The notes under the pieces are model-generated. The model searched no databases. It was given only the letters and a program-made list of their open reading frames with translations, and was not told where the DNA came from. The translations under genes and the position numbers were made by a program. Shown here piece after piece: positions 1 to 63,804 of a DNA stretch of 64,000 nt; within the stretch, counting starts at the first letter, position 1; every line of letters begins with the position of its first letter. This DNA is from Candidatus Pacearchaeota archaeon (GTDB lineage: Archaea; Nanobdellota; Nanobdellia; Pacearchaeales; GW2011-AR1), in NCBI GenBank assembly GCA_026414385.1, contig JAOAJC010000001.1, positions 2,384-66,383 of the forward strand. Direction: 5' to 3'.

Positions 1-962
1 TTTTTGCAAATTTTAAAAATCTTTGCAACCTCAAAAAGAGAACCATTTTGATTTGGTTTGATTATCATTGCATTAATTGATTTCATTTTAATTGCTTTTT
101 TTAATCTTCGGATATTGGTTGTTGTTAAATCGTCTCCGATAATAAGATGTTTTTTTACTATTTTAGAAAATCCTAAAAAATCCTCTTCATTTAATGGGTC
201 TTCAAGATAAAATAGGTCATAATCATTAATTAATGAATTCATATAATGAATTTGTGCTTCCCTATCTAATTGTTTATCTTTGTAATTATAAATTCCATTC
301 TTGAAGAAAGAAGATGATGCTACATCTATACCTATTCTTGTGTTTGTTAGATTGGAAAGAATTTCTAAAATTTCTTCATCATTTAGCGAACATTGTAAAG
401 CGCCTTCATCATTAACTTGTTTTGTATTCAATATTAATTTTAATGTTTTATAATTATCTTGCATTGATTTAACATTATCTTTGAAAGATTTTTCATTTGG
501 AATTAATAGGAATTCTTGGAAAACCGGATGTTTCTTGAATTTGGCTGAATGCAATCCGCCACCAATTGCATTGCCGACAGGAATTGGAAACTTTTTTGCG
601 TTAGGATTAATAACTTGCCATAATTCTTTTTTATTTTCTTTTGCAAGCGCCTTTAATATTGCAGATTCCAATGCGAAAAGAGCATTTGCTCCAAATTGTT
701 TTGCATCTTTTAAATTAAATTTTTTTTTGATAAGAGATTCAATTTTAGACAAATCATTAAATGAATTTATTTCAAATGGAATTTTTAATTTGTTTATTAC
801 ATTAACATTCCAATCTAAAGAAAAATTATATGATGGCGTTTCATGCTTGCCTTTTGATTTTCCTGAAGGAGATGATGCTTTTTGGTTATTAACAGAAACT
901 TCTATTGTTGGTTCGTTTCTTGAATCTTTTATTATTCTTGCCCTAACCTCTTTTATAATCAT
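1..962 (-). CDS. eno: Enolase (phosphopyruvate hydratase), truncated by the window edge (N-terminal ~320 aa present)
   Basis: Hand translation of the minus strand from ATG at 962 gives MIIKEVRARIIKDSRNEPTIEVSV...SPSGKSKGKHE, then NAIGGGLHSAKFKKHPVFQEFLLIP, IGIDVASS, YLEDPL, IIGDDLTTTN and IKPNQNGS. These are the classic enolase motifs in the correct order. The plus-strand ORF 481..999 in the track is its antisense shadow. Position next to rpoK matches the conserved archaeal rpoN-rpoK-eno-rps2 cluster. Confidence 0.85.
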   Translation of the reverse strand, partial: MIIKEVRARIIKDSRNEPTIEVSVNNQKASSPSGKSKGKHETPSYNFSLDWNVNVINKLKIPFEINSFNDLSKIESLIKKKFNLKDAKQFGANALFALESAILKALAKENKKELWQVINPNAKKFPIPVGNAIGGGLHSAKFKKHPVFQEFLLIPNEKSFKDNVKSMQDNYKTLKLILNTKQVNDEGALQCSLNDEEILEILSNLTNTRIGIDVASSSFFKNGIYNYKDKQLDREAQIHYMNSLINDYDLFYLEDPLNEEDFLGFSKIVKKHLIIGDDLTTTNIRRLKKAIKMKSINAMIIKPNQNGSLFEVAKIFKICK

Positions 963-3888: not shown

Positions 3889-4566
3889 TTATTTTTTTTC
3901 TGGAAGTTCTTCACTTTGTACTGCACCATGGGTTATGTTATTTAGTTTCGTATAAAAATCCATTTGCATGCCGGATGGAATATTAAGAATTACTGACAAA
4001 GAGCCATTTGGAAGCCAGTCCTCGCTTTCTTTAAAATCTTTTAAGATACCATAAACTTGTCCGGTGTATTGTGGCGGGATAGTAAGTTTAATTCTTTTTG
4101 TTTCTATCCTTATAGGTAAGATTGTTTGTATCTTTGTTATTAAATCTTGCATTTGTTGTTCTGCTGGCCTTGAATCAAAATTAAAATGAACTTCTTCTGC
4201 GGCCCTTCTTATTCTTTCTTCTGTATAAGGTCTGCCATTCTGATCAACTGCGTTCTTAACGACAAGATTAATTACTTGTTTTATTTTTGATTCTTTTTCA
4301 GCATCTCGAAATTCTTGGGTTTTTTGAACTTCTCCAGAAACAATAATTTTTTTTGCAATTTCATATAAATCTGTTGTTCCAAATGCCTCTTTTAAATCAG
4401 AAGAAGGGGCGACGTTTCCTTTTTTTATATCTGTATAAACTTGTGGTGAGTCAAGAGCAGAAATTATATCTCCTTTTCCAGATTTAACTTTAAGAGCTTC
4501 GTCTAAATCGACTCTTATCTCATAGGTTTTTCCTTTTATTTTTAATCTTGCCATAACTTTTGCCAT
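3889..4566 (-). CDS. sdo1: Ribosome maturation protein SDO1/SBDS homolog
   Basis: 225 aa with an SBDS-like N-terminal domain (KGKTYEIRVDLDEALKVKSGKGDI). Conserved neighbour of psmA and the exosome genes in archaea. Confidence 0.75.
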   Translation of the reverse strand: MAKVMARLKIKGKTYEIRVDLDEALKVKSGKGDIISALDSPQVYTDIKKGNVAPSSDLKEAFGTTDLYEIAKKIIVSGEVQKTQEFRDAEKESKIKQVINLVVKNAVDQNGRPYTEERIRRAAEEVHFNFDSRPAEQQMQDLITKIQTILPIRIETKRIKLTIPPQYTGQVYGILKDFKESEDWLPNGSLSVILNIPSGMQMDFYTKLNNITHGAVQSEELPEKK

Positions 4567-50574: not shown

Positions 50575-50845
50575 GGTGTAGGCAGGGAGTTTGCTCAAAA
50601 AACCCATTGCAGAACCCTCTTGCCTTTCTCAGTTTTGCAACCCTGAAAGCATCTTGTTTCCTGATTAGGGCTGCTCCGATCAAGGCCTGACCCGATTCAC
50701 AGGAGCAAGATCGAACAGGACAAAACATCAACGTCCGGCAAAAGACTGCAAAGAGTCTTTCTCACTCGCTCCTTTAAGCTTGCCATGAAGCCCGCTTGCA
50801 TGACGGCGCAGGGCTAGCGCGCCAGCTTGCCTACATCATAAAGAA
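50575..50845 (-). ncRNA. ffs: Probable signal recognition particle RNA (7S/SRP RNA)
   Basis: A ~270-nt GC-rich island in an AT-rich genome with no ORF. The minus-strand reading contains GGUCAGG-CC-uugauc-GG-AGCAGCC (forward coordinates 50668..50693). This is the conserved SRP RNA helix-8 pattern (GGUCAGG...AGCAGCC flanking a short stem-loop). Confidence 0.5.
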
Positions 50846-56688: not shown

Positions 56689-57027
56689 ATGAAAAATTTG
56701 GAACAATTGTCTGATTTTGATTTGGGTGGCTATAAATTTTGGTATATATTAGAGGAATTAAGAAAAGACTATAGCAGATTTGTGCATGATGATTTTCCAG
56801 ATGAAGTAATTGCAGGGGCGATTCAAGGGATTAAGAATATAAGAGAGGTTTCTAAACAAGTAAGAAGTTTAGAACAAAATTCAAGAGAAGAAGCAGAAAG
56901 ATTTAAACAACAAATTTTATTAGAACATTGTGGATATATTTATTTGATACATCTTATAATAGGAAGGGAAAGAGATTTTAAATTTTCTGAGATATATAAT
57001 TCTATTAAAAATAAAGATATTAATTAG
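56689..57027 (+). CDS. Hypothetical protein
   Basis: 112 aa ORF, no motif recognised. Confidence 0.3.
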   Translation: MKNLEQLSDFDLGGYKFWYILEELRKDYSRFVHDDFPDEVIAGAIQGIKNIREVSKQVRSLEQNSREEAERFKQQILLEHCGYIYLIHLIIGRERDFKFSEIYNSIKNKDIN

Positions 57028-57086
57028 AGAGAGTGCGCTAAAAAGTTTGAGCAAAAAGAAAAAAAGAAAAATAAAAATTATGCAGA

Positions 57087-57206
57087 TTATTCTGAATCTG
57101 CTGATTCTGCAGTTAATTCAGTATTTTCTGTTTGAGTTTCTTCTGTCTTAACTGGAGAAACTTTTTCAGTTGTCTTTTCTGATTTTTTTGGCCTTCCTCT
57201 TGGCAT
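57087..57206 (-). CDS. Tiny ORF (39 aa) with an N-terminal AT-hook-like motif
   Basis: MPRGRPKKSEKTTEKVSPVKTEETQTENTELTAESADSE, found by hand translation. RGRP core then an acidic tail. Confidence 0.25.
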   Translation of the reverse strand: MPRGRPKKSEKTTEKVSPVKTEETQTENTELTAESADSE

Positions 57207-57686
57207 ATTATTAACCTCCTCTAATAAAAAAATTAAATTAAAAGAGTATTTAATTATTGAGAAAGGCTTTTAAACTATCTAAGTAGTGCCATAATAGTGA
57301 TAAATTTATTTAAATTTTTATTAATCCGAACTTTAATTATATGCTGAAACTTTTTATTTTTGATTAAAACTTACTGCATTTGATAATAAGTTCGTGTTAA
57401 TTAAAAGATTAATTTTAAAAAGGCTCAGAAATTTAAGGTAAGATGTCATATGTTATGCCTGGAATGTTTCCAGTTGGGCAGATATGGAGTGTTTCAAAAT
57501 TGTACCTAAGATGGGCATCTTATTTAGCCAGTGCTGTCAAAAATAAGATAATTAAGAATATTGTTAATAAAGAGATTATTTTTAATGTTTTAAATTAGTC
57601 AAAAACCAGAGTTTTTTTTGATTTTTTAGCTGTTTTTGGCTTCGTTTAATGTATCTTGTGCGAACAATAGGCACAAGATTAAGGGT

Positions 57687-57908
57687 TTAAGGCGCAAATG
57701 CTCTATAACCCGGGGAATTATCGAAATCTTGATACAATTTTACAAATTCTTGACGCATTTTTGAGATTATTTGCTCTCTTGACTCTTTTGAATTATCAAA
57801 TCCTGCAAGCGATAGTAAAATGGCTTGTGCAAATAATGTTGCTATAAATAACCCGTTTCCCTTTTCAACATATTCTTCTTCTTCTGTTTTTTGTTCTAGA
57901 TTTTCCAT
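57687..57908 (-). CDS. Hypothetical small protein
   Basis: 73 aa ORF with a hydrophobic core segment. Confidence 0.3.
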   Translation of the reverse strand: MENLEQKTEEEEYVEKGNGLFIATLFAQAILLSLAGFDNSKESREQIISKMRQEFVKLYQDFDNSPGYRAFAP

Positions 57909-58002
57909 GATTTTTTGATGCTTTCTTAGTATTTATAGTTTGCTATTTTATAAAAATCATTAGCTATAAGTTTTTGGAAATAATTGAAAGTTTTCGCTAT
58001 TT

Positions 58003-58146
58003 TTATAGATAGATATTAATTATTTGTAAAATTCCGTAAATTATTAAGTAAAATCCTAGTATCCATCTAACTAATCTTGGAAATAAGAGGACTAAGATTC
58101 CCAATAATATTGCGAGAATTGCAATAATTGTTAAGGATATTGCCAT
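58003..58146 (-). CDS. Tiny hydrophobic membrane protein (47 aa)
   Basis: Hand translation gives MAISLTIIAILAILLGILVLLFPRLVRWILGFYLIIYGILQIINIYL. Confidence 0.3.
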   Translation of the reverse strand: MAISLTIIAILAILLGILVLLFPRLVRWILGFYLIIYGILQIINIYL

Positions 58147-58173
58147 TTTGAAATTACCTCCTTTCAATTGTTA

Positions 58174-58422
58174 TTAATCTTGTAAGAGTTTTGAGGTGAA
58201 AAAGATAAAAATCACTCCAAAAATAGTTATTGAAATTGCAGTATATGTTTCGGTAAGATAGTGCTCTGGGTGAATGTTTATTAGTTTTAGTGTTAAATCT
58301 TGAAATAAGTTAAAAATTGCATTGCGCCAGGCCCAGGCAATAGTGAAACCGACAGCTGCGACTATTGCAAGCCGAATTTGTCGTTTAAATTCTAATTTGA
58401 AAGTTCTTTTTACATTAAACAT
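58174..58422 (-). CDS. Small membrane protein (82 aa)
   Basis: Two TM segments (LAIVAAVGFTIAWAW; AISITIFGVIFIFF). Confidence 0.35.
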   Translation of the reverse strand: MFNVKRTFKLEFKRQIRLAIVAAVGFTIAWAWRNAIFNLFQDLTLKLINIHPEHYLTETYTAISITIFGVIFIFFTSKLLQD

Positions 58423-58502
58423 GGTTTTCCCTAAATAAAAGACTGGAAAACAAAACCAGTTCTTTTATAATAAAACAAATAAAAAATCAAAAGTTTTTAA
58501 GT

Positions 58503-58679
58503 TTATTTCCTCTTTTTGACTGGGGCTTGATAGTTTCTAACAAGCTTACCGATACCTATAACTAATACTGCCAATGGGATAAGCCATTTTGAGAGTGCGT
58601 CTAACTGAGAGACTCCAAGCAAAGGCAGGACAAGTAAGACACCGATAAGAGTTACAAGCCATGCTGTTAATTTGGCCAT
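58503..58679 (-). CDS. Tiny hydrophobic membrane protein (58 aa)
   Basis: Hand translation gives MAKLTAWLVTLIGVLLVLPLLGVSQLDALSKWLIPLAVLVIGIGKLVRNYQAPVKKRK. Confidence 0.3.
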   Translation of the reverse strand: MAKLTAWLVTLIGVLLVLPLLGVSQLDALSKWLIPLAVLVIGIGKLVRNYQAPVKKRK

Positions 58680-58835
58680 TTTTACCTCCTTTTTAATTTA
58701 GTTTGTGATTTTATTAAAAATTATAGGAATTTGGAGTTTATAAGCTTTTCTTTTTTTATTTTTGGTTAAATTTAATGGCCGGGTGCGTTCGGCGCTTCGC
58801 GCCTCACATATTATTGAGGTTGTATTTTTTTAATT

Positions 58836-58925
58836 ATTCCACTTTTTTGGAATTTTGATAAGATTTTTTTTAAAATTCCATTATTTATGTGTAATAATTA
58901 ATATGGAATTTTTTAAAAATTCCAT
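58836..58925. promoter_or_regulatory. Cluster of TGGAAT/ATTCCA dyad elements (three inverted-repeat sites, one a perfect 23-nt palindrome)
   Basis: ATTCCA-cttttt-TGGAAT (58836..58853). TGGAATTTT-N15-AAAATTCCA (58848..58880). ATGGAATTTTT-T-AAAAATTCCAT (58903..58925, perfect). Confidence 0.4.
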
Positions 58926-59038
58926 ATGCAATAAAGGGGTGCTAAAAGTTGTTGTTTTTTATTAAAAATTTAAGCAAAAATTGTTAAAATATTGGCATTT
59001 TTTGTAAAAATTTTATATTTTTTAAGTGTTTTTTGGTG

Positions 59039-59056
59039 TTTAAACAGCTGTTTAAA
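59039..59056. promoter_or_regulatory. 18-bp perfect palindrome TTTAAACAGCTGTTTAAA flanked by TGGTGTTTAAA direct repeats
   Basis: Direct repeats at 59034..59044 and 59068..59078. Lies in a 510-nt intergenic region upstream of the wHTH gene at 59194. Confidence 0.4.
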
Positions 59057-59193
59057 ATTTAAATAATGGTGTTTAAAGTTTATTTTTTGGGTTTTTGCTT
59101 GTTTGTTTTTTGTTTGTTGTGTAACTTTTAAGTTGTGGTTTTTAAGGCTTAAAAAAACGAAATATTTATAAATTAGAGTTTTTTGAATATATT

Positions 59194-59859
59194 ATGTTTG
59201 ATTGGATATTTGGAAAGAGGTGGAAGAGGGTTGAGGAAGAAACAAAAAAAGGATTTAATGCAGTGAGAGAAGATATTGAAGCAATAGGAAAGTGGATAAA
59301 ACATCTTGATGGGGAAGATAAACAGCTGTTTATGATTATTTCTGAATTAAAAAATGAAATAAACGCGTTAAAAAGCGAATTATTAGAGTTAAAGAATGGA
59401 TTAGAGGTTGCTGAAGAAAGTCAAAAAATTGTGCCAAAATTTAAAAAATTGCCAGTTGTTGGTAAACAAACAGGTGTTGAGGTTGTTCAAAAAGTTGTTC
59501 AAACACCTGTTCAAACAGGCAATTTTTATGATATTTTTAAAAGTTTGAGTGCTAATGAGAGATTAATTGTTTTTACATTAATGAATAGTGAGCTAAAATT
59601 AAGTTATGAGGATTTGGCTTTGCTGTTAGGGAAAGAGAGAGCAACTATAAGAGGGCAGATAAATGCAATAAAACAGAAAAGTGAGGGTTTAATTGAGGAG
59701 ATAATTGAAAAAAATGGGAAAAAAAGAGTGTTTATTCCAGATGAAATAAAGGTAAAATTAGCAAAATATGCAAAAGTGAGAGTTAAGAGTGAGAAAAAAA
59801 TGTTAGAAAATGAGAATTTCAGTGAAAAAAGTGAAGGAGAGCAAAAAAATGAGAGTTAG
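59194..59859 (+). CDS. Coiled-coil plus C-terminal winged-helix (MarR-like) protein
   Basis: N-terminal heptad-rich region (ELKNEINALKSELLELKNGLE), Q/V/T-rich linker, and wHTH ERLIVFTLMNSELKLSYEDLALLLGKERATIRGQINAIKQKSEGLIEEI. Confidence 0.5.
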   Translation: MFDWIFGKRWKRVEEETKKGFNAVREDIEAIGKWIKHLDGEDKQLFMIISELKNEINALKSELLELKNGLEVAEESQKIVPKFKKLPVVGKQTGVEVVQKVVQTPVQTGNFYDIFKSLSANERLIVFTLMNSELKLSYEDLALLLGKERATIRGQINAIKQKSEGLIEEIIEKNGKKRVFIPDEIKVKLAKYAKVRVKSEKKMLENENFSEKSEGEQKNES

Positions 59860-60012
59860 AAATCTATATTAATTTGGCCTGTAAATTTTGGAGGTGAGAG
59901 TAAAAATTAAAACGAACCTAAAAAACAACGAGAATGGGGGAAGAAAAAAAAGAAACAACAAAAGATTAAAAGTTGTTGGAAAAAAACAAGAGTTTATCGG
60001 TTAAACGAAAAT

Positions 60013-60642
60013 TTATAACTCTCTGAGAGATAAAATAGTTTGTAAAGAGGCGATTTTTTTAAGTTCGGGGGAGATTGAGAGAACAATTTTTTTGTTGTTG
60101 TGTTTGGTTTTTATGACAGGAATCCCTTTTTTAATAAGTTTTAAGACATAATCTCTTATTGAACTTTCAGTTAAGGAGAGTTTTTTTGAGATAAGAGAGT
60201 AATCGACTATAAAACCCTCTTCTTCGAGTTGATAGATTGTTGAGAAAACTAACATTTCTTGATTTGTTAGGTGCTTAAAAGTAGAACGAATGTCTTTTTT
60301 TATAGAGTCAAGAGAGTTTAGGATCTGTGAAAGATGTTCTATTTTTGATATTTTATCAATGTGTTGGATTGTCTGTCTGTTTGTCTGTCTGTCTGTTGGA
60401 ACCCCATTATTTCCTGTGGAAACTTCATTATAATTGGTTATTGGGCTGTATAAATGAGATTTATTTGTTGGATTTGATAAAATAGTGGTATTTTGCGGTA
60501 GGGATTTATTTATTTGTTGGTTGTCTGTTGGTTTGTCTGTTTGTTGGATTGAGTTTAAAGTTCGTTTAATTTCATTTATTTGTTCTTTTATTTCTTGAAT
60601 CTCTATTTTTACTTTTGCAAATGCTTCTTTTATAGGATCCAT
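60013..60642 (-). CDS. Paralogous coiled-coil plus C-terminal winged-helix protein with a Q/T/N-rich linker
   Basis: MDPIKEAFAKVKIEIQEIKEQINEIKRTL. Linker PTDRQTNRQT / QTDKPTDNQQ encoded by (TGTC/TGTT)n repeats. wHTH NQEMLVFSTIYQLEEEGFIVDYSLISKKLSLTESSIRDYVLKLIKKG. Confidence 0.5.
   Translation of the reverse strand: MDPIKEAFAKVKIEIQEIKEQINEIKRTLNSIQQTDKPTDNQQINKSLPQNTTILSNPTNKSHLYSPITNYNEVSTGNNGVPTDRQTNRQTIQHIDKISKIEHLSQILNSLDSIKKDIRSTFKHLTNQEMLVFSTIYQLEEEGFIVDYSLISKKLSLTESSIRDYVLKLIKKGIPVIKTKHNNKKIVLSISPELKKIASLQTILSLREL
60371..60396. repeat. Tetranucleotide (GTCT/GTTT)n microsatellite inside the coding region (second copy 60515..60550)
   Basis: gtctgtctgtttgtctgtctgtctgtt, and further on ttgtctgttggtttgtctgtttgttgg. 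Confidence 0.6.
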
Positions 60643-60704
60643 AAATAAATTAGATTAAAAAGAATTAATAAGTATTGTTGTGAATTAGAATAATTAAAAA
60701 TGAA

Positions 60705-61028
60705 TTAGGGGGAATCTCTGAAGAGATTTGGGAGAGAGGAGTTTGTATTTGAGAGATTTTGTTGGTGTTTTTTATATACTTCATAAGTTTTATTAGAGAG
60801 GCGCCAGCGCTGCCTTTTTATATAATTGTTACCCTTTGGGTTCTTATTTATTTCAACAACAAGAGATTTAGATTTTAATTCAAGAAGTAAAGATTTTGTA
60901 AATTCTTCATCTCGGGCAATTTCTCGGCTGATATCTGAAGTGAATTTGGATTCTGGGGATATGGAAAAAAGATAGTGAAGGATTTGTTCTGCTATTTTAT
61001 CTTTTTTTTCTTTTGATAGTTTTGGCAT
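60705..61028 (-). CDS. Small putative DNA-binding (wHTH-like) protein
   Basis: Start refined to MPKLSKEKKDKIAEQILHYLFSISPE...SREIARDEEFTKSLLLELKSKSLV, resembling a MarR/PadR-type HTH. Confidence 0.35.
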   Translation of the reverse strand: MPKLSKEKKDKIAEQILHYLFSISPESKFTSDISREIARDEEFTKSLLLELKSKSLVVEINKNPKGNNYIKRQRWRLSNKTYEVYKKHQQNLSNTNSSLPNLFRDSP

Positions 61029-61206
61029 GATAACAAAAACTAAATAAATTATATAAATATTTAGTATTTTTGAATTAAAAGAAAAAAATAACAAAAAAGT
61101 AGAGTAAAAATAGATAATAAAATTTATAAATTTATAGAAAGAGTTTTATTTGGCCTGTATGCTCTCTGTTTTGTAGTTGGAATAATAAAATTTAGATTAG
61201 GTAAAA

Positions 61207-63804
61207 ATGAGTTTTATAAAATACATAGAAAAGAACAAAGCTGAAGAGATAGAAAATATATTAAATCCAATTGTTAGAGAGTGGTTTTTTTCGAAGTTTA
61301 AAGAGTTTTCATTGACACAACTTTATGGGGTAAAAAACATAAATGATAGAAAAAACATTCTTGTGTGCGCACCTACAGGAGGGACAAAAACATTAACTGC
61401 TTTTTTACCAATTATTAATTATTTAGTGGAATTGGCTTTAAAAAAAGAGTTGGAAAATAAGGTTTATGCTGTTTATTGTTCGCCATTAAAAGCGTTGACA
61501 AATGATATTTATATAAATTTAATAAAGCCGCTTGAAGAGATTGGAGAGATAGCAAAGAAAAAAGGAAAAGAAATGCAGGAAATAAGAGTGGGTTTAAGGA
61601 CCGGAGATAGTGAACAAAAAGAGAGACAGAAAATGACAAAAAAAAGTCCCCATATTCTTGTTACTACGCCTGAAAGTTTTGCTATAGTTATGACATCAAA
61701 AAAATTTATTGAGAATTTAAGAGGGGTAGAATATGTTATTGTTGATGAGATACACGCACTAACTAATAAAAGAGGAGTTTATTTGTCTTTAACTTTGGAG
61801 AGATTGAGTGATATAAGCATAATCGAGCCTGTAAGAATTGGATTAAGCGCGACTATTGCACCGCTTGAGGAAATTGCTCGTTTTTTAGTTGGGGTTGGTA
61901 GAGAGTGCCTTATTGCAGATGTAAAATTAATGAAAAAAGTTGAGATTGGATTAAATTTTCCAGGGGGGAACATAATTGAAGCTGAGAGCATAGAAAATCA
62001 GAGGGAACTTTATTATATTCTTGATGAGTTAATATGGAAGCATAAGACTACATTAATATTTACCAATACAAGAGCTGCAACAGAAAGAATTATTCATTAT
62101 CTTGATTTGCATTTTCCTGGGAAATATGTAGGATTAATAGGTGCGCATCATTCTTCAATGAGCAAAGAAAAAAGATTTGAGATTGAAGAGAAACTAAGAA
62201 AAGGGGAGTTAAAGGTAGTGGTAAGTTCAACTTCTTTAGAATTGGGAATTGATATAGGAAGTATTGATTTAGTAATTATGTTGAGAAGTCCAAAGAGCGT
62301 TTCAAGAGCGTTACAAAGAATAGGAAGGGCGGGACATAAGTTACACGAAAACCCGAAAGGAGAGTTTTTAGTGTTGGATAGAGATGATTTAATTGAGTGC
62401 GGGGTAATGAGAAAAGGAATGATAGAGGGGAAGATTGATTTAGCAGAAATTCCAAAAAATTGTTTGGATGTTTTGAGTCAACAAATTTATGGTATGGCTA
62501 TAACAAGAGTGTGGAATGTTGATGAGTTATTAAAACTCATAAGGAGAAGTTATTGCTATGAGAATTTGACAAAAGAGGACTTTTATTCTGTTATTAGTTA
62601 TCTTGCAGGAGATTATGCATTAGAACACAGAAATGTTTATGCAAAAATTTGGTATGATGCTGAAAAAAAGCTTATAGGAAAAAGAGGAAAGATGGCAAGA
62701 GTAATTTATTTGACAAATTTAGGAACGATTCCAGGAGAGGAAAGTGCGAGTGTCATAATCGGTACAGGAGAGAGAAAAGGAAGCGTTGTAGGGAAGATTG
62801 ACGAATCATTTTTGGAGAAAATGAAAAGAGGAGATGTTTTTGTTTTGGGAGGGAATAAATATCAGTTTTTATATGCGAGGGGGTTAAAAGCGTTTGTTTC
62901 TGCAGATGTTTCAAAAAATCCTACTATTCCTTCTTGGTTTTCTGAGATATTACCTTTGAATTTTGAGTTAGCGAAAGAGATAGGAAGGTTTAGAAAATTG
63001 GTGAAGGAGAGGTTGCAAGAGAAAGAGAGGTGTATTGAGTGGATAATGAGTTATTTATATTGCAAGAGAGAGATTGCAAATGAGATTTATGATTATTTTT
63101 GGCAACAAGATAAATTTTCTGAGATCCCTGATGAAAAAACATTAGTTGTGGAGAAATATAAGGAAAATAAAGAGTATTTAATGTTTCATAGTTTGTATGG
63201 TAGAAGAGTAAATGATGTATTAGCAAGAGCTTATGCCTATGCTGCTGCAAGATTAAAGCATAGAGATGTAGAAATAGGTGTTGGCGATAATGGGTTTTAT
63301 ATTGCTGGTGAAAGTTTGGATGAAAATAAAATAATAAATTGGGTAAAATCAAAAGATTTGGAAAAAATAGTAAAAGAAGCTATTGAAAAGACAGAAATTT
63401 TAAGAAGAAGATTTAGGCATTGTGCTGCAAGAGCTTTAATGATATTGAGAAATTATAAAGGGAGGGAGAAAAGTGTTGGAAAACAGCAAGTGCATAGTGA
63501 GTTTTTGTTTGTTGCTGTAAAAAAATTAAGTGATGATTTTCCAATATTAAGGGAGGCAAGAAGAGAGGTAATAGAGGATTTAATGGACATAAAAAATGCA
63601 AAAAAAGTATTAGAATGGATTGAGAGAGGTGAAATAAAGATAAAAATAAAAAAATTACCTTTGGTTTCGCCGTTTGGTTTAAATTTGAGTTTGCAGGGAA
63701 AGAGTGATTTAATTAAAATGGAAGATAGAGTGAGTTTTTTAAAAAGAATGTATGAGATACATATGAGAACAATAAATAATAAAGAGGAATTTAAAATTAT
63801 ATAA
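61207..63804 (+). CDS. lhr: Lhr-like ATP-dependent helicase (superfamily 2, COG1201-type with C-terminal DEAD/H-associated domain)
   Basis: Motif I CAPTGGTKT, motif II VIVDEIH, motif III SAT, motif VI QRIGRAGH. A ~350-aa C-terminal extension typical of Lhr-core proteins. Confidence 0.75.
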   Translation: MSFIKYIEKNKAEEIENILNPIVREWFFSKFKEFSLTQLYGVKNINDRKNILVCAPTGGTKTLTAFLPIINYLVELALKKELENKVYAVYCSPLKALTNDIYINLIKPLEEIGEIAKKKGKEMQEIRVGLRTGDSEQKERQKMTKKSPHILVTTPESFAIVMTSKKFIENLRGVEYVIVDEIHALTNKRGVYLSLTLERLSDISIIEPVRIGLSATIAPLEEIARFLVGVGRECLIADVKLMKKVEIGLNFPGGNIIEAESIENQRELYYILDELIWKHKTTLIFTNTRAATERIIHYLDLHFPGKYVGLIGAHHSSMSKEKRFEIEEKLRKGELKVVVSSTSLELGIDIGSIDLVIMLRSPKSVSRALQRIGRAGHKLHENPKGEFLVLDRDDLIECGVMRKGMIEGKIDLAEIPKNCLDVLSQQIYGMAITRVWNVDELLKLIRRSYCYENLTKEDFYSVISYLAGDYALEHRNVYAKIWYDAEKKLIGKRGKMARVIYLTNLGTIPGEESASVIIGTGERKGSVVGKIDESFLEKMKRGDVFVLGGNKYQFLYARGLKAFVSADVSKNPTIPSWFSEILPLNFELAKEIGRFRKLVKERLQEKERCIEWIMSYLYCKREIANEIYDYFWQQDKFSEIPDEKTLVVEKYKENKEYLMFHSLYGRRVNDVLARAYAYAAARLKHRDVEIGVGDNGFYIAGESLDENKIINWVKSKDLEKIVKEAIEKTEILRRRFRHCAARALMILRNYKGREKSVGKQQVHSEFLFVAVKKLSDDFPILREARREVIEDLMDIKNAKKVLEWIERGEIKIKIKKLPLVSPFGLNLSLQGKSDLIKMEDRVSFLKRMYEIHMRTINNKEEFKII

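What the first reader, a model, noticed from the sequence alone, without database searches (positions are those of the whole stretch)
57210..59193. Non-coding-rich stretch with recurring TGGAA/TTCCA dyads and a perfect 18-bp palindrome
This compact genome otherwise has tiny intergenic gaps. Here about 2 kb carry only micro-ORFs. TGGAA/TTCCA half-sites recur as dyads, namely CTGGAA-tgt-TTCCAG at 57459..57473 and three dyads at 58836..58925, one a perfect 23-nt palindrome. TTTAAACAGCTGTTTAAA (59039..59056) is flanked by TGGTGTTTAAA direct repeats. TTCCA/TGGAA are also the half-sites of archaeal origin recognition boxes, although the spacing here differs. The region is either an operator array for the adjacent wHTH proteins or a replication-origin-like element.
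Basis: seen in the sequence. Interest (0 to 1): 0.55.

Follow-up and report, generated by a model that had tools for sequence, protein, structure and literature searches.

The report
Conserved operator array, not an origin
This stretch is not a replication origin: it holds several small membrane-protein genes and a 514-bp control region, whose palindrome is the core of a DNA motif array conserved in front of, and inside, one regulator gene in about 80 related DPANN archaeal species.

Summary
The window comes from a Pacearchaeota (DPANN) genome. The TGGAAT cluster is non-random: 5 half-sites in 90 bp, never reached in simulations. But the stretch is not non-coding-rich. 58003-58679 holds three conserved small membrane-protein genes. 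The true gaps are 57207-57442 and 58680-59193.

The TGGAAT dyads are lineage-specific (mean 0.31 half-sites in 83 homologous regions). The 18-bp palindrome is the core of a deeply conserved array of G[GC]TGTTT(AAACA) units. GGTGTTT occurs upstream in 81/82 species, about 150 nt before the ATG, with spacings of 10-12, 20-22 and 31-32 bp.

The same motif recurs inside the 59194 gene in two reading frames. Rare codons are fixed there (CAG 152/153, CTG 92/98). The third-base T is invariant where the amino acid varies. So the CDS is under nucleotide-level selection.

An unbiased metagenome scan found the 19-mer almost only beside this gene family. The protein has a well-modelled Lrs14/ArsR/MarR-like winged helix.

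The canonical origin (ORB dyads with G-strings, an AT-rich DUE, orc1/cdc6) lies 6.3-9.6 kb downstream in relatives, beyond the window end.

Best reading: a self-targeting (autoregulatory, possibly looping) operator array. The binder is inferred, not shown.

The parts
57087..57206 (-). 39-aa ORF with a weak AT-hook-like N-terminus. A counterpart is found only in the closest relative.
   Evidence: (AT_hook E=0.034, below cut-off).
57207..57442 (.). Non-coding gap conserved with the closest relatives. It contains the inverted repeat TTAATCCGAACTT / AAGTTCGTGTTAAT. Function unknown.
   Evidence: I8; 163 of 241 aligned columns identical to L001. No Rfam match and no significant fold.
57443..57598 (+). 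Possible 51-aa small gene. It holds the CTGGAATGTTTCCAG dyad (57459-57473) within codons P-G-M-F-P. The dyad is not conserved in L001.
   Evidence: The ORF is kept in L001 (47 aa); substitutions by codon position are 11/8/16, so coding status is ambiguous.
57687..57908 (-). 73-aa ORF with no homologue in any fetched locus. Coding status unknown.
58003..58167 (-). DUF3096 small membrane-protein gene (54 aa).
   Evidence: Pfam PF11295, 29.6 bits vs cut-off 23.3. Found on the minus strand in 41 related loci.
58174..58422 (-). DUF5654 small membrane-protein gene (82 aa).
   Evidence: Pfam PF18898, 33.1 bits vs cut-off 23.8. Found in 42 related loci.
58503..58679 (-). 58-aa transmembrane protein gene with a GGAGG Shine-Dalgarno sequence.
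   Evidence: called as a 58-aa gene in L001/L002; 27 loci.
58778..58831 (+). GC-rich hairpin element followed by a T-run. Core GGCGC-TTC-GCGCC lies at 58791-58803. It belongs to a multi-copy, co-oriented family found upstream of this gene cluster in relatives.
   Evidence: 88 copies in the loci, all in one orientation, all upstream; covariation at two outer pairs: 27 double-change cells vs 6.0 +/- 2.1 in shuffles.
58836..58927 (.). Lineage-specific cluster of five TGGAAT/ATTCCA half-sites forming three dyads, including the 27-nt near-palindrome 58901-58927.
   Evidence: Not conserved in relatives.
58936..58953 (+). GGGGTGCTAAAAGTTGTT, a block conserved with L001/L002 that reads as two degenerate array units.
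59026..59078 (+). Core of the conserved array. Units are GGTGTTT (59035), GCTGTTT (59047) and GGTGTTT (59068), spaced 12 and 21 bp, plus a degenerate GTGTTTT at 59026. It includes the palindromes TGTTTAAACA (59037-59046) and TTTAAACAGCTGTTTAAA (59039-59056).
59158..59172 (+). BRE/TATA promoter CGAAATATTTATAAA. The TATA centre is about 26 nt before the ATG, which implies a leaderless mRNA.
   Evidence: TATA-like element at -36..-18 in 82/82 loci; no Shine-Dalgarno in any.
59194..59859 (+). Gene for the 221-aa conserved DPANN protein: N-terminal helical hairpin, disordered VQT-repeat linker, C-terminal winged helix.
59320..59331 (+). Intragenic perfect palindrome AAACAGCTGTTT, encoding K-Q-L-F (codon frame 0).
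   Evidence: (D14).
59468..59517 (+). Intragenic motif copies in codon frame 1: AAACAGGTGTT (59468), AAACACCTGTT (59501), and TGTTCAAACA at 59496 and 59508, encoding the VQTPVQT repeats.

Best explanation
The 2-kb stretch has two parts. One is a run of small membrane-protein genes on the minus strand. The other is a 514-bp divergent control region.

The functional core of the control region is not the TGGAA dyads. The array lies about 100-180 nt upstream of a leaderless, TATA-driven gene for a coiled-coil plus winged-helix protein. Copies of the same motif are embedded in that gene's coding sequence.

The most likely mechanism is that the gene's own product, as a dimer or higher oligomer, binds these sites cooperatively on one face of the helix and controls its own transcription. 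It may do so by bridging the upstream and intragenic sites into a loop around the promoter.

Shown: the conservation, phasing, gene specificity and nucleotide-level selection of the motif, and the winged-helix fold. Inferred: which protein binds, and whether the effect is activation, repression or looping.

The TGGAAT dyads are probably an extra protein-binding site acquired in this lineage. Their binder is unknown.
For: - Conservation upstream: GGTGTTT occurs in 81/82 upstream regions (8 in shuffles), TGTTTAAACA in 50/82, ACAGCTGTTT in 45/82 and ACAGGTGTTT in 28/82.
- Position and orientation: units peak at -180..-100 and are strongly co-oriented. The anchor lies a median of 151.5 nt before the ATG, and 152 nt in the window.
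- Helical phasing: unit spacings peak at 10-12, 20-22, 31-32 and 42-44 bp.
- Gene specificity in the fetched loci: AAACASSTGTT gave 72 hits at -200..-100, 244 at +100..+400, and 0 in about 620 kb downstream. In the 64-kb window all 4 sites lie at 59042-59511.
- Gene specificity in an unbiased scan: of 130 sites of the 19-mer in metagenome contigs, 107 have the homologous gene a median of 157 nt downstream and 10 are cut by a contig end. Most of the 13 others are further copies near a family member or chance hits in unrelated high-GC DNA.
- Nucleotide-level selection in the CDS. Q44/Q81 use CAG in 152/153 cases against a 51% background. Q103/Q107 use CAA in 160/161. L45/L82 use CTG in 92/98 against 8%. 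Valine at those positions uses GTG in 56/56 against 25%. The third base is T in 389/405 codons at five positions where the amino acid varies.
- Two reading frames: the motif occurs in frame 0 (136 times) and frame 1 (108 times).
- Stop-codon avoidance: the CDS uses TGTTCAAACA in 70/82 genes and never TGTTTAAACA, which would create an in-frame TAA.
- Protein: the AF2 model gives residues 111-193 as a winged helix at pLDDT 82-91. The best Foldseek hits are AbfR2/Lrs14-like, ArsR/SmtB and MarR. Weak sequence hits point the same way: Sta1 and Lrs14-like.
- Recognition helix: many residues of the predicted helix 149-162 are invariant across species (T151, R153, G154, Q155, N157, Q161, K162).
- Promoter: a TATA-like element at -36..-18 and no Shine-Dalgarno sequence in 82/82 loci.
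Against: - No binding data exist, so the binder is inferred from co-occurrence only.
- Two other winged-helix genes (60013-60642 and 60705-61094) are just as conserved next door (82/82 and 79/82 loci). Either could be the binder.
- The array lies upstream of BRE/TATA rather than over it. That placement is atypical for a simple archaeal repressor.
- The window's own copy is reduced: 3 units against a median of about 5. It also lacks the TCGACGATA palindrome that precedes the array in about half of the species.
- The family HMM hits are far below curated cut-offs.
- The sequences compared are related by descent, so the P-values overstate independence.
Confidence: 0.58

Rival explanations
1. Replication-origin-like element. 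Orc1/Cdc6 binds the TGGAA/TTCCA dyads, and the AT-rich gap serves as an unwinding region.
For: - TTCCA/TGGAA are also the half-sites of this clade's own ORBs, whose consensus is TTTTCCA-NN-GGAAAT.
- The locus is origin-proximal: orc1/cdc6 lies 6.3-9.6 kb away in relatives.
- The cluster of half-sites is statistically non-random.
Against: - No orc1/cdc6 is in the window.
- In relatives the orc1/cdc6 upstream region carries ATATAATATA-type AT-rich k-mers (30/36) and ORB-like dyads (29/36), seventeen of them with a G-rich flank. That region is elsewhere.
- The dyads here have spacings of 6, 11 and 15 nt instead of 2. They have no GGTGTGGG G-string and do not flank a DUE.
- They are absent from homologous regions of 80 species (mean 0.31 half-sites).
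- There is no GC-skew sign change at 57-59 kb.
Confidence: 0.04
2. Origin-proximal centromere-like or chromosome-organising site. The coiled-coil/winged-helix protein polymerises on the phased repeats, as ParB does on parS inside spo0J, TubR on tubC, or ParR on parC. On this reading the element serves segregation or origin architecture rather than gene regulation.
For: - Direct repeats recur at the helical period.
- Sites lie inside the binder's own gene.
- The position is fixed at 6-9 kb from oriC in 36/40 loci.
- The motif occurs nowhere else in the roughly 1.2 Mb examined.
- The protein is very highly conserved: 55-78% identity, with 2497 database hits.
Against: - No ParA/ParM/TubZ-type NTPase is among the conserved neighbours. 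Those are winged-helix genes, Lhr, Metallophos and PRC.
- A single small cluster of 3-10 units is equally typical of an operator.
- No whole-genome distribution is available.
Confidence: 0.13
3. The array is bound by one of the two neighbouring winged-helix proteins (60013-60642 or 60705-61094), not by the 59194 product. It would then be an ordinary operator of a three-gene regulatory module.
For: Both neighbours are present in 82/82 and 79/82 loci in fixed positions. The 209-aa protein has the same coiled-coil plus HTH layout, with weak DnaD_N and HTH_36 hits.
Against: - The motif sits upstream of and inside the 59194 gene only. There are 0 anchor hits from +400 to +10 kb, which covers both neighbours and their promoters.
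- Distant paralogues of the 59194 protein (34-41% identity) still carry arrays next to them.
Confidence: 0.15
4. The motif acts at the RNA level. Self-complementary AAACAGCUGUUU copies would pair within the mRNA, or with an RNA made from the upstream array, to control translation or stability.
For: Every copy of the palindrome is complementary to every other copy. There is strong synonymous-site constraint in the CDS.
Against: - The upstream copies lie outside the predicted leaderless transcript.
- Spacings follow the 10.5-bp period of B-DNA.
- The central dinucleotide varies freely (GC, GG, CC) with no possibility of compensation.
Confidence: 0.07

Closest known systems
Lrs14 / AbfR / Sta1 family of archaeal winged-helix regulators. 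From my own knowledge, Lrs14 binds its own promoter.
   Same: The C-terminal domain is modelled as a winged helix. Its best structural match is AbfR2 (6cmv). Weak sequence matches go to Sta1 and to an Lrs14-like chain. The sites lie in front of its own gene.
   Different: Scores are far below the family cut-off (17.5 vs 80 bits). This protein adds a roughly 77-residue N-terminal helical hairpin and a disordered repeat linker. It occurs in DPANN, not Sulfolobales. Its sites extend into the CDS.
Auxiliary intragenic operators with DNA looping, known from the literature: lac O2 inside lacZ and gal OI inside galE.
   Same: The same operator motif occurs both upstream of the promoter and inside the coding sequence, 280-470 bp apart. 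The protein has a putative oligomerisation domain.
   Different: This is an archaeal BRE/TATA promoter with a leaderless mRNA. It has several phased units rather than single operators. The intragenic sites lie in the regulator's own gene and shape its amino-acid sequence. Looping has not been tested.
Iteron-type centromeres and their adaptor proteins, known from the literature: ParR-parC, TubR-tubC, and ParB-parS with parS inside spo0J.
   Same: There are 10-12-bp phased direct repeats next to (and, as with parS, inside) the gene of a small DNA-binding protein, close to the replication origin.
   Different: No partner NTPase gene is in the conserved neighbourhood. The system is chromosomal and single-copy per locus. 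No evidence of spreading exists.
Archaeal Orc1/Cdc6 origins: ORB or mini-ORB dyads flanking an AT-rich unwinding region. [quoted passage not shown]
   Same: The TTCCA/TGGAA half-sites are shared with the clade's ORBs.
   Different: The spacing is wrong, there is no G-string, no flanked DUE, no adjacent orc1/cdc6, and no conservation. The canonical origin is found elsewhere in relatives.

Membership tests
Archaeal Orc1/Cdc6-dependent replication origin | Lies next to an orc1/cdc6 gene | tested here: not met
   tblastn with a clade Orc1 finds nothing in the 64-kb window. In 36/40 relatives orc1/cdc6 is 6.3-9.6 kb downstream of the 59194 homologue, which projects beyond the window end.
Archaeal Orc1/Cdc6-dependent replication origin | ORB elements: a short dyad with the clade's spacing plus a G-string | tested here: not met
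   The clade ORB is TTTTCCA-NN-GGAAAT-N3-GGTGTGGG. The dyads here have spacers of 6, 11 and 15 nt and no G-string. The ORB pattern has no match in 58680-59193.
Archaeal Orc1/Cdc6-dependent replication origin | Inverted ORBs flanking an AT-rich unwinding element | tested here: not met
   The ATATAATATA-type AT-rich k-mers seen in 30/36 orc1-upstream regions are absent here. The whole gap is uniformly AT-rich.
Archaeal Orc1/Cdc6-dependent replication origin | Strand-composition (GC-skew) switch at the site | tested here: inconclusive
   Skew stays positive from 53 to 64 kb. The cumulative minimum is near 16-17 kb, where the coding strand switches. Skew in a 64-kb window is confounded by gene orientation.
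Lrs14/Sta1-type winged-helix regulators | Winged helix-turn-helix fold | tested here: met
   AF2 with 73 sequences models residues 111-193 as H-H-H plus a beta wing at pLDDT 82-91. The Foldseek top hit is AbfR2, followed by ArsR/SmtB and MarR.
Lrs14/Sta1-type winged-helix regulators | Passes the family's curated sequence model | tested here: not met
   NCBIfam Sta1 scores 17.5 bits against a cut-off of 80. No Pfam family matches at E<=0.1.
Autoregulated operator with intragenic auxiliary sites (looping type) | The same motif upstream of the promoter and inside the transcribed region, both under selection | tested here: met
Autoregulated operator with intragenic auxiliary sites (looping type) | The regulator binds these sites and changes its own transcription | not testable with these tools
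   Only co-occurrence of motif and gene family is available.
Iteron centromere / partition system | Phased direct repeats beside the adaptor gene | tested here: met
   Spacing peaks at 10-12, 20-22 and 31-32 bp. The median is about 5 units per region.
Iteron centromere / partition system | Partner NTPase (ParA/ParM/TubZ) encoded alongside | tested here: not met
   The Pfam content of the neighbours in four relatives is DUF3096, DUF5654, Lhr helicase, Metallophos, PRC and Orc1/Cdc6. There is no partition NTPase.
Pfam DUF3096 and DUF5654 (the 'micro-ORFs') | Score above Pfam's gathering threshold | tested here: met
   DUF3096 scores 29.6 vs 23.3 bits; DUF5654 scores 33.1 vs 23.8 bits.

The most novel reading that the evidence does not exclude
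The array and its protein form a DPANN-specific, origin-proximal chromosome-organising or centromere-like module. The coiled-coil/winged-helix protein would assemble on phased sites in and around its own gene, 6-9 kb from oriC. It would mark the origin region for segregation or replication control in these tiny-genome archaea, where no segregation system is known.
Probability: 0.12. Interest if true: 0.85.

Novelty: new variant of a known kind. Interest (0 to 1): 0.55.

Why it matters
Pacearchaeota and their relatives are uncultured, and almost nothing is known about their gene regulation. This locus pairs a specific DNA motif with a very conserved, unannotated DNA-binding protein. That pairing can be tested directly with recombinant protein and synthetic DNA.

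The motif imposes fixed rare codons and shapes a conserved peptide repeat (VQTxVQT). It is therefore a clear case of a DNA signal constraining protein sequence across about 80 species.

The comparison also locates the probable oriC of this clade (ORB-like dyads, some with a G-rich flank, and AT-rich sequence upstream of orc1/cdc6).

Tried and rejected
- Rfam found nothing in 57000-59300, either at gathering thresholds on the whole window or at E<=5 on that stretch.
- Single-sequence folds of the GC-rich element and of 57240-57445 were not better than shuffles.
- I looked for C/D-box and H/ACA signatures in the conserved non-coding blocks by eye and found no proper boxes.
- The window's own protein is not on record in the contig index, so context came from homologues.
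- The first structure model, from 12 sequences, was too poor to use.
- RNAalifold on the GC element returned only its invariant 5-bp core.
- A second hairpin (GCCTCA...TGAGGC) showed no covariation.
- A TGGAAT cluster at window 292-812 turned out to lie inside a coding region that runs off the window.
- The intergenic region upstream of the Lhr gene has no TGGAAT dyad.
- A full-text literature search for the motif strings returned only cloning primers.
- The two coiled-coil/HTH proteins are not detectably paralogous by BLASTP.
Full report
**Source and layout**

The 221-aa product of 59194-59859 is 100% identical to a hypothetical protein of a Candidatus Pacearchaeota MAG. The window is about 30% G+C.

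The minus-strand 'micro-ORFs' are genes. 58003-58167 is a DUF3096 protein and 58174-58422 a DUF5654 protein; both score above Pfam's thresholds. Together with the 58-aa membrane protein at 58503-58679, they recur on the same strand and in the same relative position in 41, 42 and 27 related loci.

Three further ORFs are found only in the closest relative or nowhere, so their status is open. These are 57087-57206, 57443-57598 and 57687-57908.

The true non-coding stretches are 57207-57442 and the 514-bp gap 58680-59193. That gap lies between the divergent 58-aa gene and the 59194 gene.

**The observation**

TGGAAT is only mildly enriched in the window as a whole (87 vs 65). Five copies within 90 bp never arose in 300 window-scale or 5000 gap-scale simulations. 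Four of the six dyads with a gap of at most 30 nt are here.

The dyad at 57459 lies inside the possible 51-aa ORF and is not kept in the nearest relative.

**Comparative evidence**

The 59194 protein has more than 2400 database relatives at 55-78% identity and no Pfam family. I fetched the locus from two close relatives, three distant ones, and 80 GTDB species representatives.

Gene order is strongly conserved:
- small membrane-protein genes on the minus strand;
- a long gap;
- the 59194 homologue;
- two winged-helix genes (present in 82/82 and 79/82 loci);
- then, in the loci whose genes were listed, an Lhr helicase, a Metallophos gene and a PRC-barrel gene;
- orc1/cdc6, 6.3-9.6 kb downstream in 36 of 40 loci with enough flank.

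**The TGGAAT dyads are lineage-specific**

In the 78%-identical relatives only the last half-site is intact, and the 27-nt palindrome survives as an imperfect one. More distant relatives have none. The mean number of half-sites in 83 homologous regions is 0.31, against 5 here.

**The palindrome is the centre of a deeply conserved array**

- GGTGTTT occurs in 81/82 upstream regions (8 in shuffles), TGTTTAAACA in 50, ACAGCTGTTT in 45 and ACAGGTGTTT in 28.
- The consensus is ...GGTGTTTaaGGGTGTTTAAACAGCTGTTTaaa-N11-GGGTGTTTa... The anchor lies a median of 151.5 nt before the ATG, and 152 nt in the window.
- Units are co-oriented and peak at -180..-100.
- There are about five units per region at the median (3-7 in most), and three in the window.
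- Successive units are 10-12, 20-22, 31-32 or 42-44 bp apart, which places them on one face of B-DNA.
- What is conserved is the direct-repeat and half-site structure, not the CAGCTG centre. That centre is CAGGTG in many species.

**The motif continues inside the gene**

AAACASSTGTT has 4 distinct sites in the 64-kb window (0.11 expected). One is upstream and three are in the CDS.

Across 82 loci it gives 72 hits at -200..-100 and 244 at +100..+400. There are none in about 620 kb downstream and roughly 0.02 per kb far upstream.

The intragenic copies encode DKQLF, KQ(L/V)FKK, GKQTAV and VQTxVQT, and they occur in two reading frames (136 and 108 occurrences).

Codon usage shows selection on the nucleotides:
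- Q44 and Q81 use CAG in 152/153 cases, while Q103 and Q107 use CAA in 160/161. The background in these genes is 51% CAG.
- Leucine at positions 45 and 82 is CTG in 92/98 cases, against 8% background.
- Valine at those positions is GTG in 56/56 cases, against 25% background.
- At five positions where the amino acid varies freely (A, P, G, D, S, V, T), the third base is T in 389/405 codons.

The CDS uses TGTTCAAACA (70/82 genes) and never TGTTTAAACA. The latter would create an in-frame TAA stop codon.

**Independent check of specificity**

A scan of metagenome contigs for the 19-mer GGTGTTTAAACAGCTGTTT gave 130 sites. Of these, 107 have the homologous gene a median of 157 nt downstream, and 10 are cut by a contig end. 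Most of the other 13 are extra copies near a family member, arrays next to 34-41%-identical paralogues, or chance hits in unrelated high-GC DNA.

**The protein**

With 73 sequences, AF2 gives an N-terminal helical hairpin (3-77), a disordered linker (78-110, the VQT repeats), and a winged helix (111-193) at pLDDT 82-91.

The best structural matches are the Lrs14-like AbfR2, ArsR/SmtB and MarR repressors. Weak sequence hits to Sta1 and an Lrs14-like chain agree. Many residues of the predicted recognition helix are invariant.

All 82 loci have a TATA-like element at -36..-18 and no Shine-Dalgarno sequence. The mRNA is therefore probably leaderless, and the array lies outside it.

**The origin question**

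The regions upstream of orc1/cdc6 in relatives look like a canonical origin. ATATAATATA-type AT-rich k-mers occur in 30/36 of them. ORB-like dyads occur in 29/36, and seventeen with a G-rich 3' flank give the consensus TTTTCCA-NN-GGAAAT-N3-GGTGTGGG. In the loci read in full, these dyads lie on either side of the AT-rich stretch.

By synteny this region lies about 2 kb beyond the window's right end. The dyads in the finding share only the pentamer half-site with these ORBs.

**Mechanism**

- Shown: a gene-specific, helically phased motif array, under nucleotide-level selection, upstream of and inside a winged-helix gene.
- Inferred: the gene's product binds it cooperatively and regulates itself. 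It may loop the promoter between the upstream and intragenic sites, as in lac O2 and gal OI.
- Not excluded: binding by a neighbouring winged-helix protein, a centromere-like or origin-associated role, or an RNA-level role.
- The TGGAAT dyads are most simply a lineage-specific extra binding site of unknown partner.

**Also in the gap**

A GC-rich hairpin lies at 58778-58831 (core GGCGC-TTC-GCGCC) and is followed by a T-run. It belongs to a family of 88 copies in the related loci. All copies are co-oriented and all lie upstream of the gene, with up to four per locus. In the copies inspected, the element abuts a minus-strand BRE/TATA-like sequence.

Two outer base pairs covary: 27 double-change cells against 6.0 +/- 2.1 in shuffles. 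Its function is unexplained.

Noticed in passing
window 58778-58831; 88 copies in L003-L085 (e.g. L033 6398, 7027, 8248, 8900): A multi-copy, sequence-conserved GC-rich hairpin: ...CGGGCGCGTTCGGCGCTTCGCGCCTCAC-N5-ATTGTGGCTATTTTTT. It is always in one orientation and always upstream of the regulator gene. In the copies inspected it abuts a minus-strand BRE/TATA-like sequence. Two outer base pairs covary. There is no Rfam match. It could be a small RNA, a terminator or insulator, or a cruciform.
   Followed up: partly
L006-L085, 28-31 nt upstream of the array anchor (e.g. L017, L015, L011): A second conserved palindrome, TATCGACGATAA, precedes the array in about 40 of 82 species. It is absent from the window and from its closest relatives L001/L002.
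   Followed up: partly
L002 10096-10606; L012, L020, L039 and others, 700 bp upstream of orc1/cdc6: This is the probable oriC of the clade. ORB-like dyads (consensus TTTTCCA-NN-GGAAAT-N3-GGTGTGGG) occur in 29/36 regions and ATATAATATA-type AT-rich k-mers in 30/36. In the loci read in full the dyads lie on either side of the AT-rich stretch. The G-string shares the pentamer GGTGT with the array unit.
   Followed up: partly
window 59194-61094 and 61207-63804: A tightly conserved module: three winged-helix genes (221, 209 and about 107 aa) next to an Lhr-type helicase, all origin-proximal. The two neighbouring winged-helix genes are present in 79-82 of 82 species. The Lhr gene was seen in the loci whose genes were listed. 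The third gene probably starts at the ATG at 61028, not at the TTG at 61094.
   Followed up: partly
window 50578-50834 (minus strand): The SRP RNA of this archaeon scores best against Rfam's bacterial large SRP model (71.4 bits) rather than the archaeal model of the same clan.
   Followed up: no
window 57653-57679; L001 about 4440-4470: A perfect 9-bp hairpin, ATCTTGTGC-N9-GCACAAGAT, lies between convergent small ORFs. The relative has a different hairpin (CTTTGC-N7-GCAAAG) at the same place, as expected for a terminator-like element.
   Followed up: no
window 57207-57442: A non-coding block about 68% identical to the nearest relative. It contains a conserved long-range inverted repeat, TTAATCCGAACTT ... 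AAGTTCG(T)GTTAAT. No Rfam match and no significant fold energy.
   Followed up: partly
L170, L190, L192 (metagenome contigs): Distant paralogues of the regulator (34-41% identity) also have GSTGTTTAAACA arrays beside them. In L192 and L170 the array is divergent from and close to the gene start; in L190 it lies about 1 kb away. So the motif-protein pairing extends beyond the orthologous group.
   Followed up: partly
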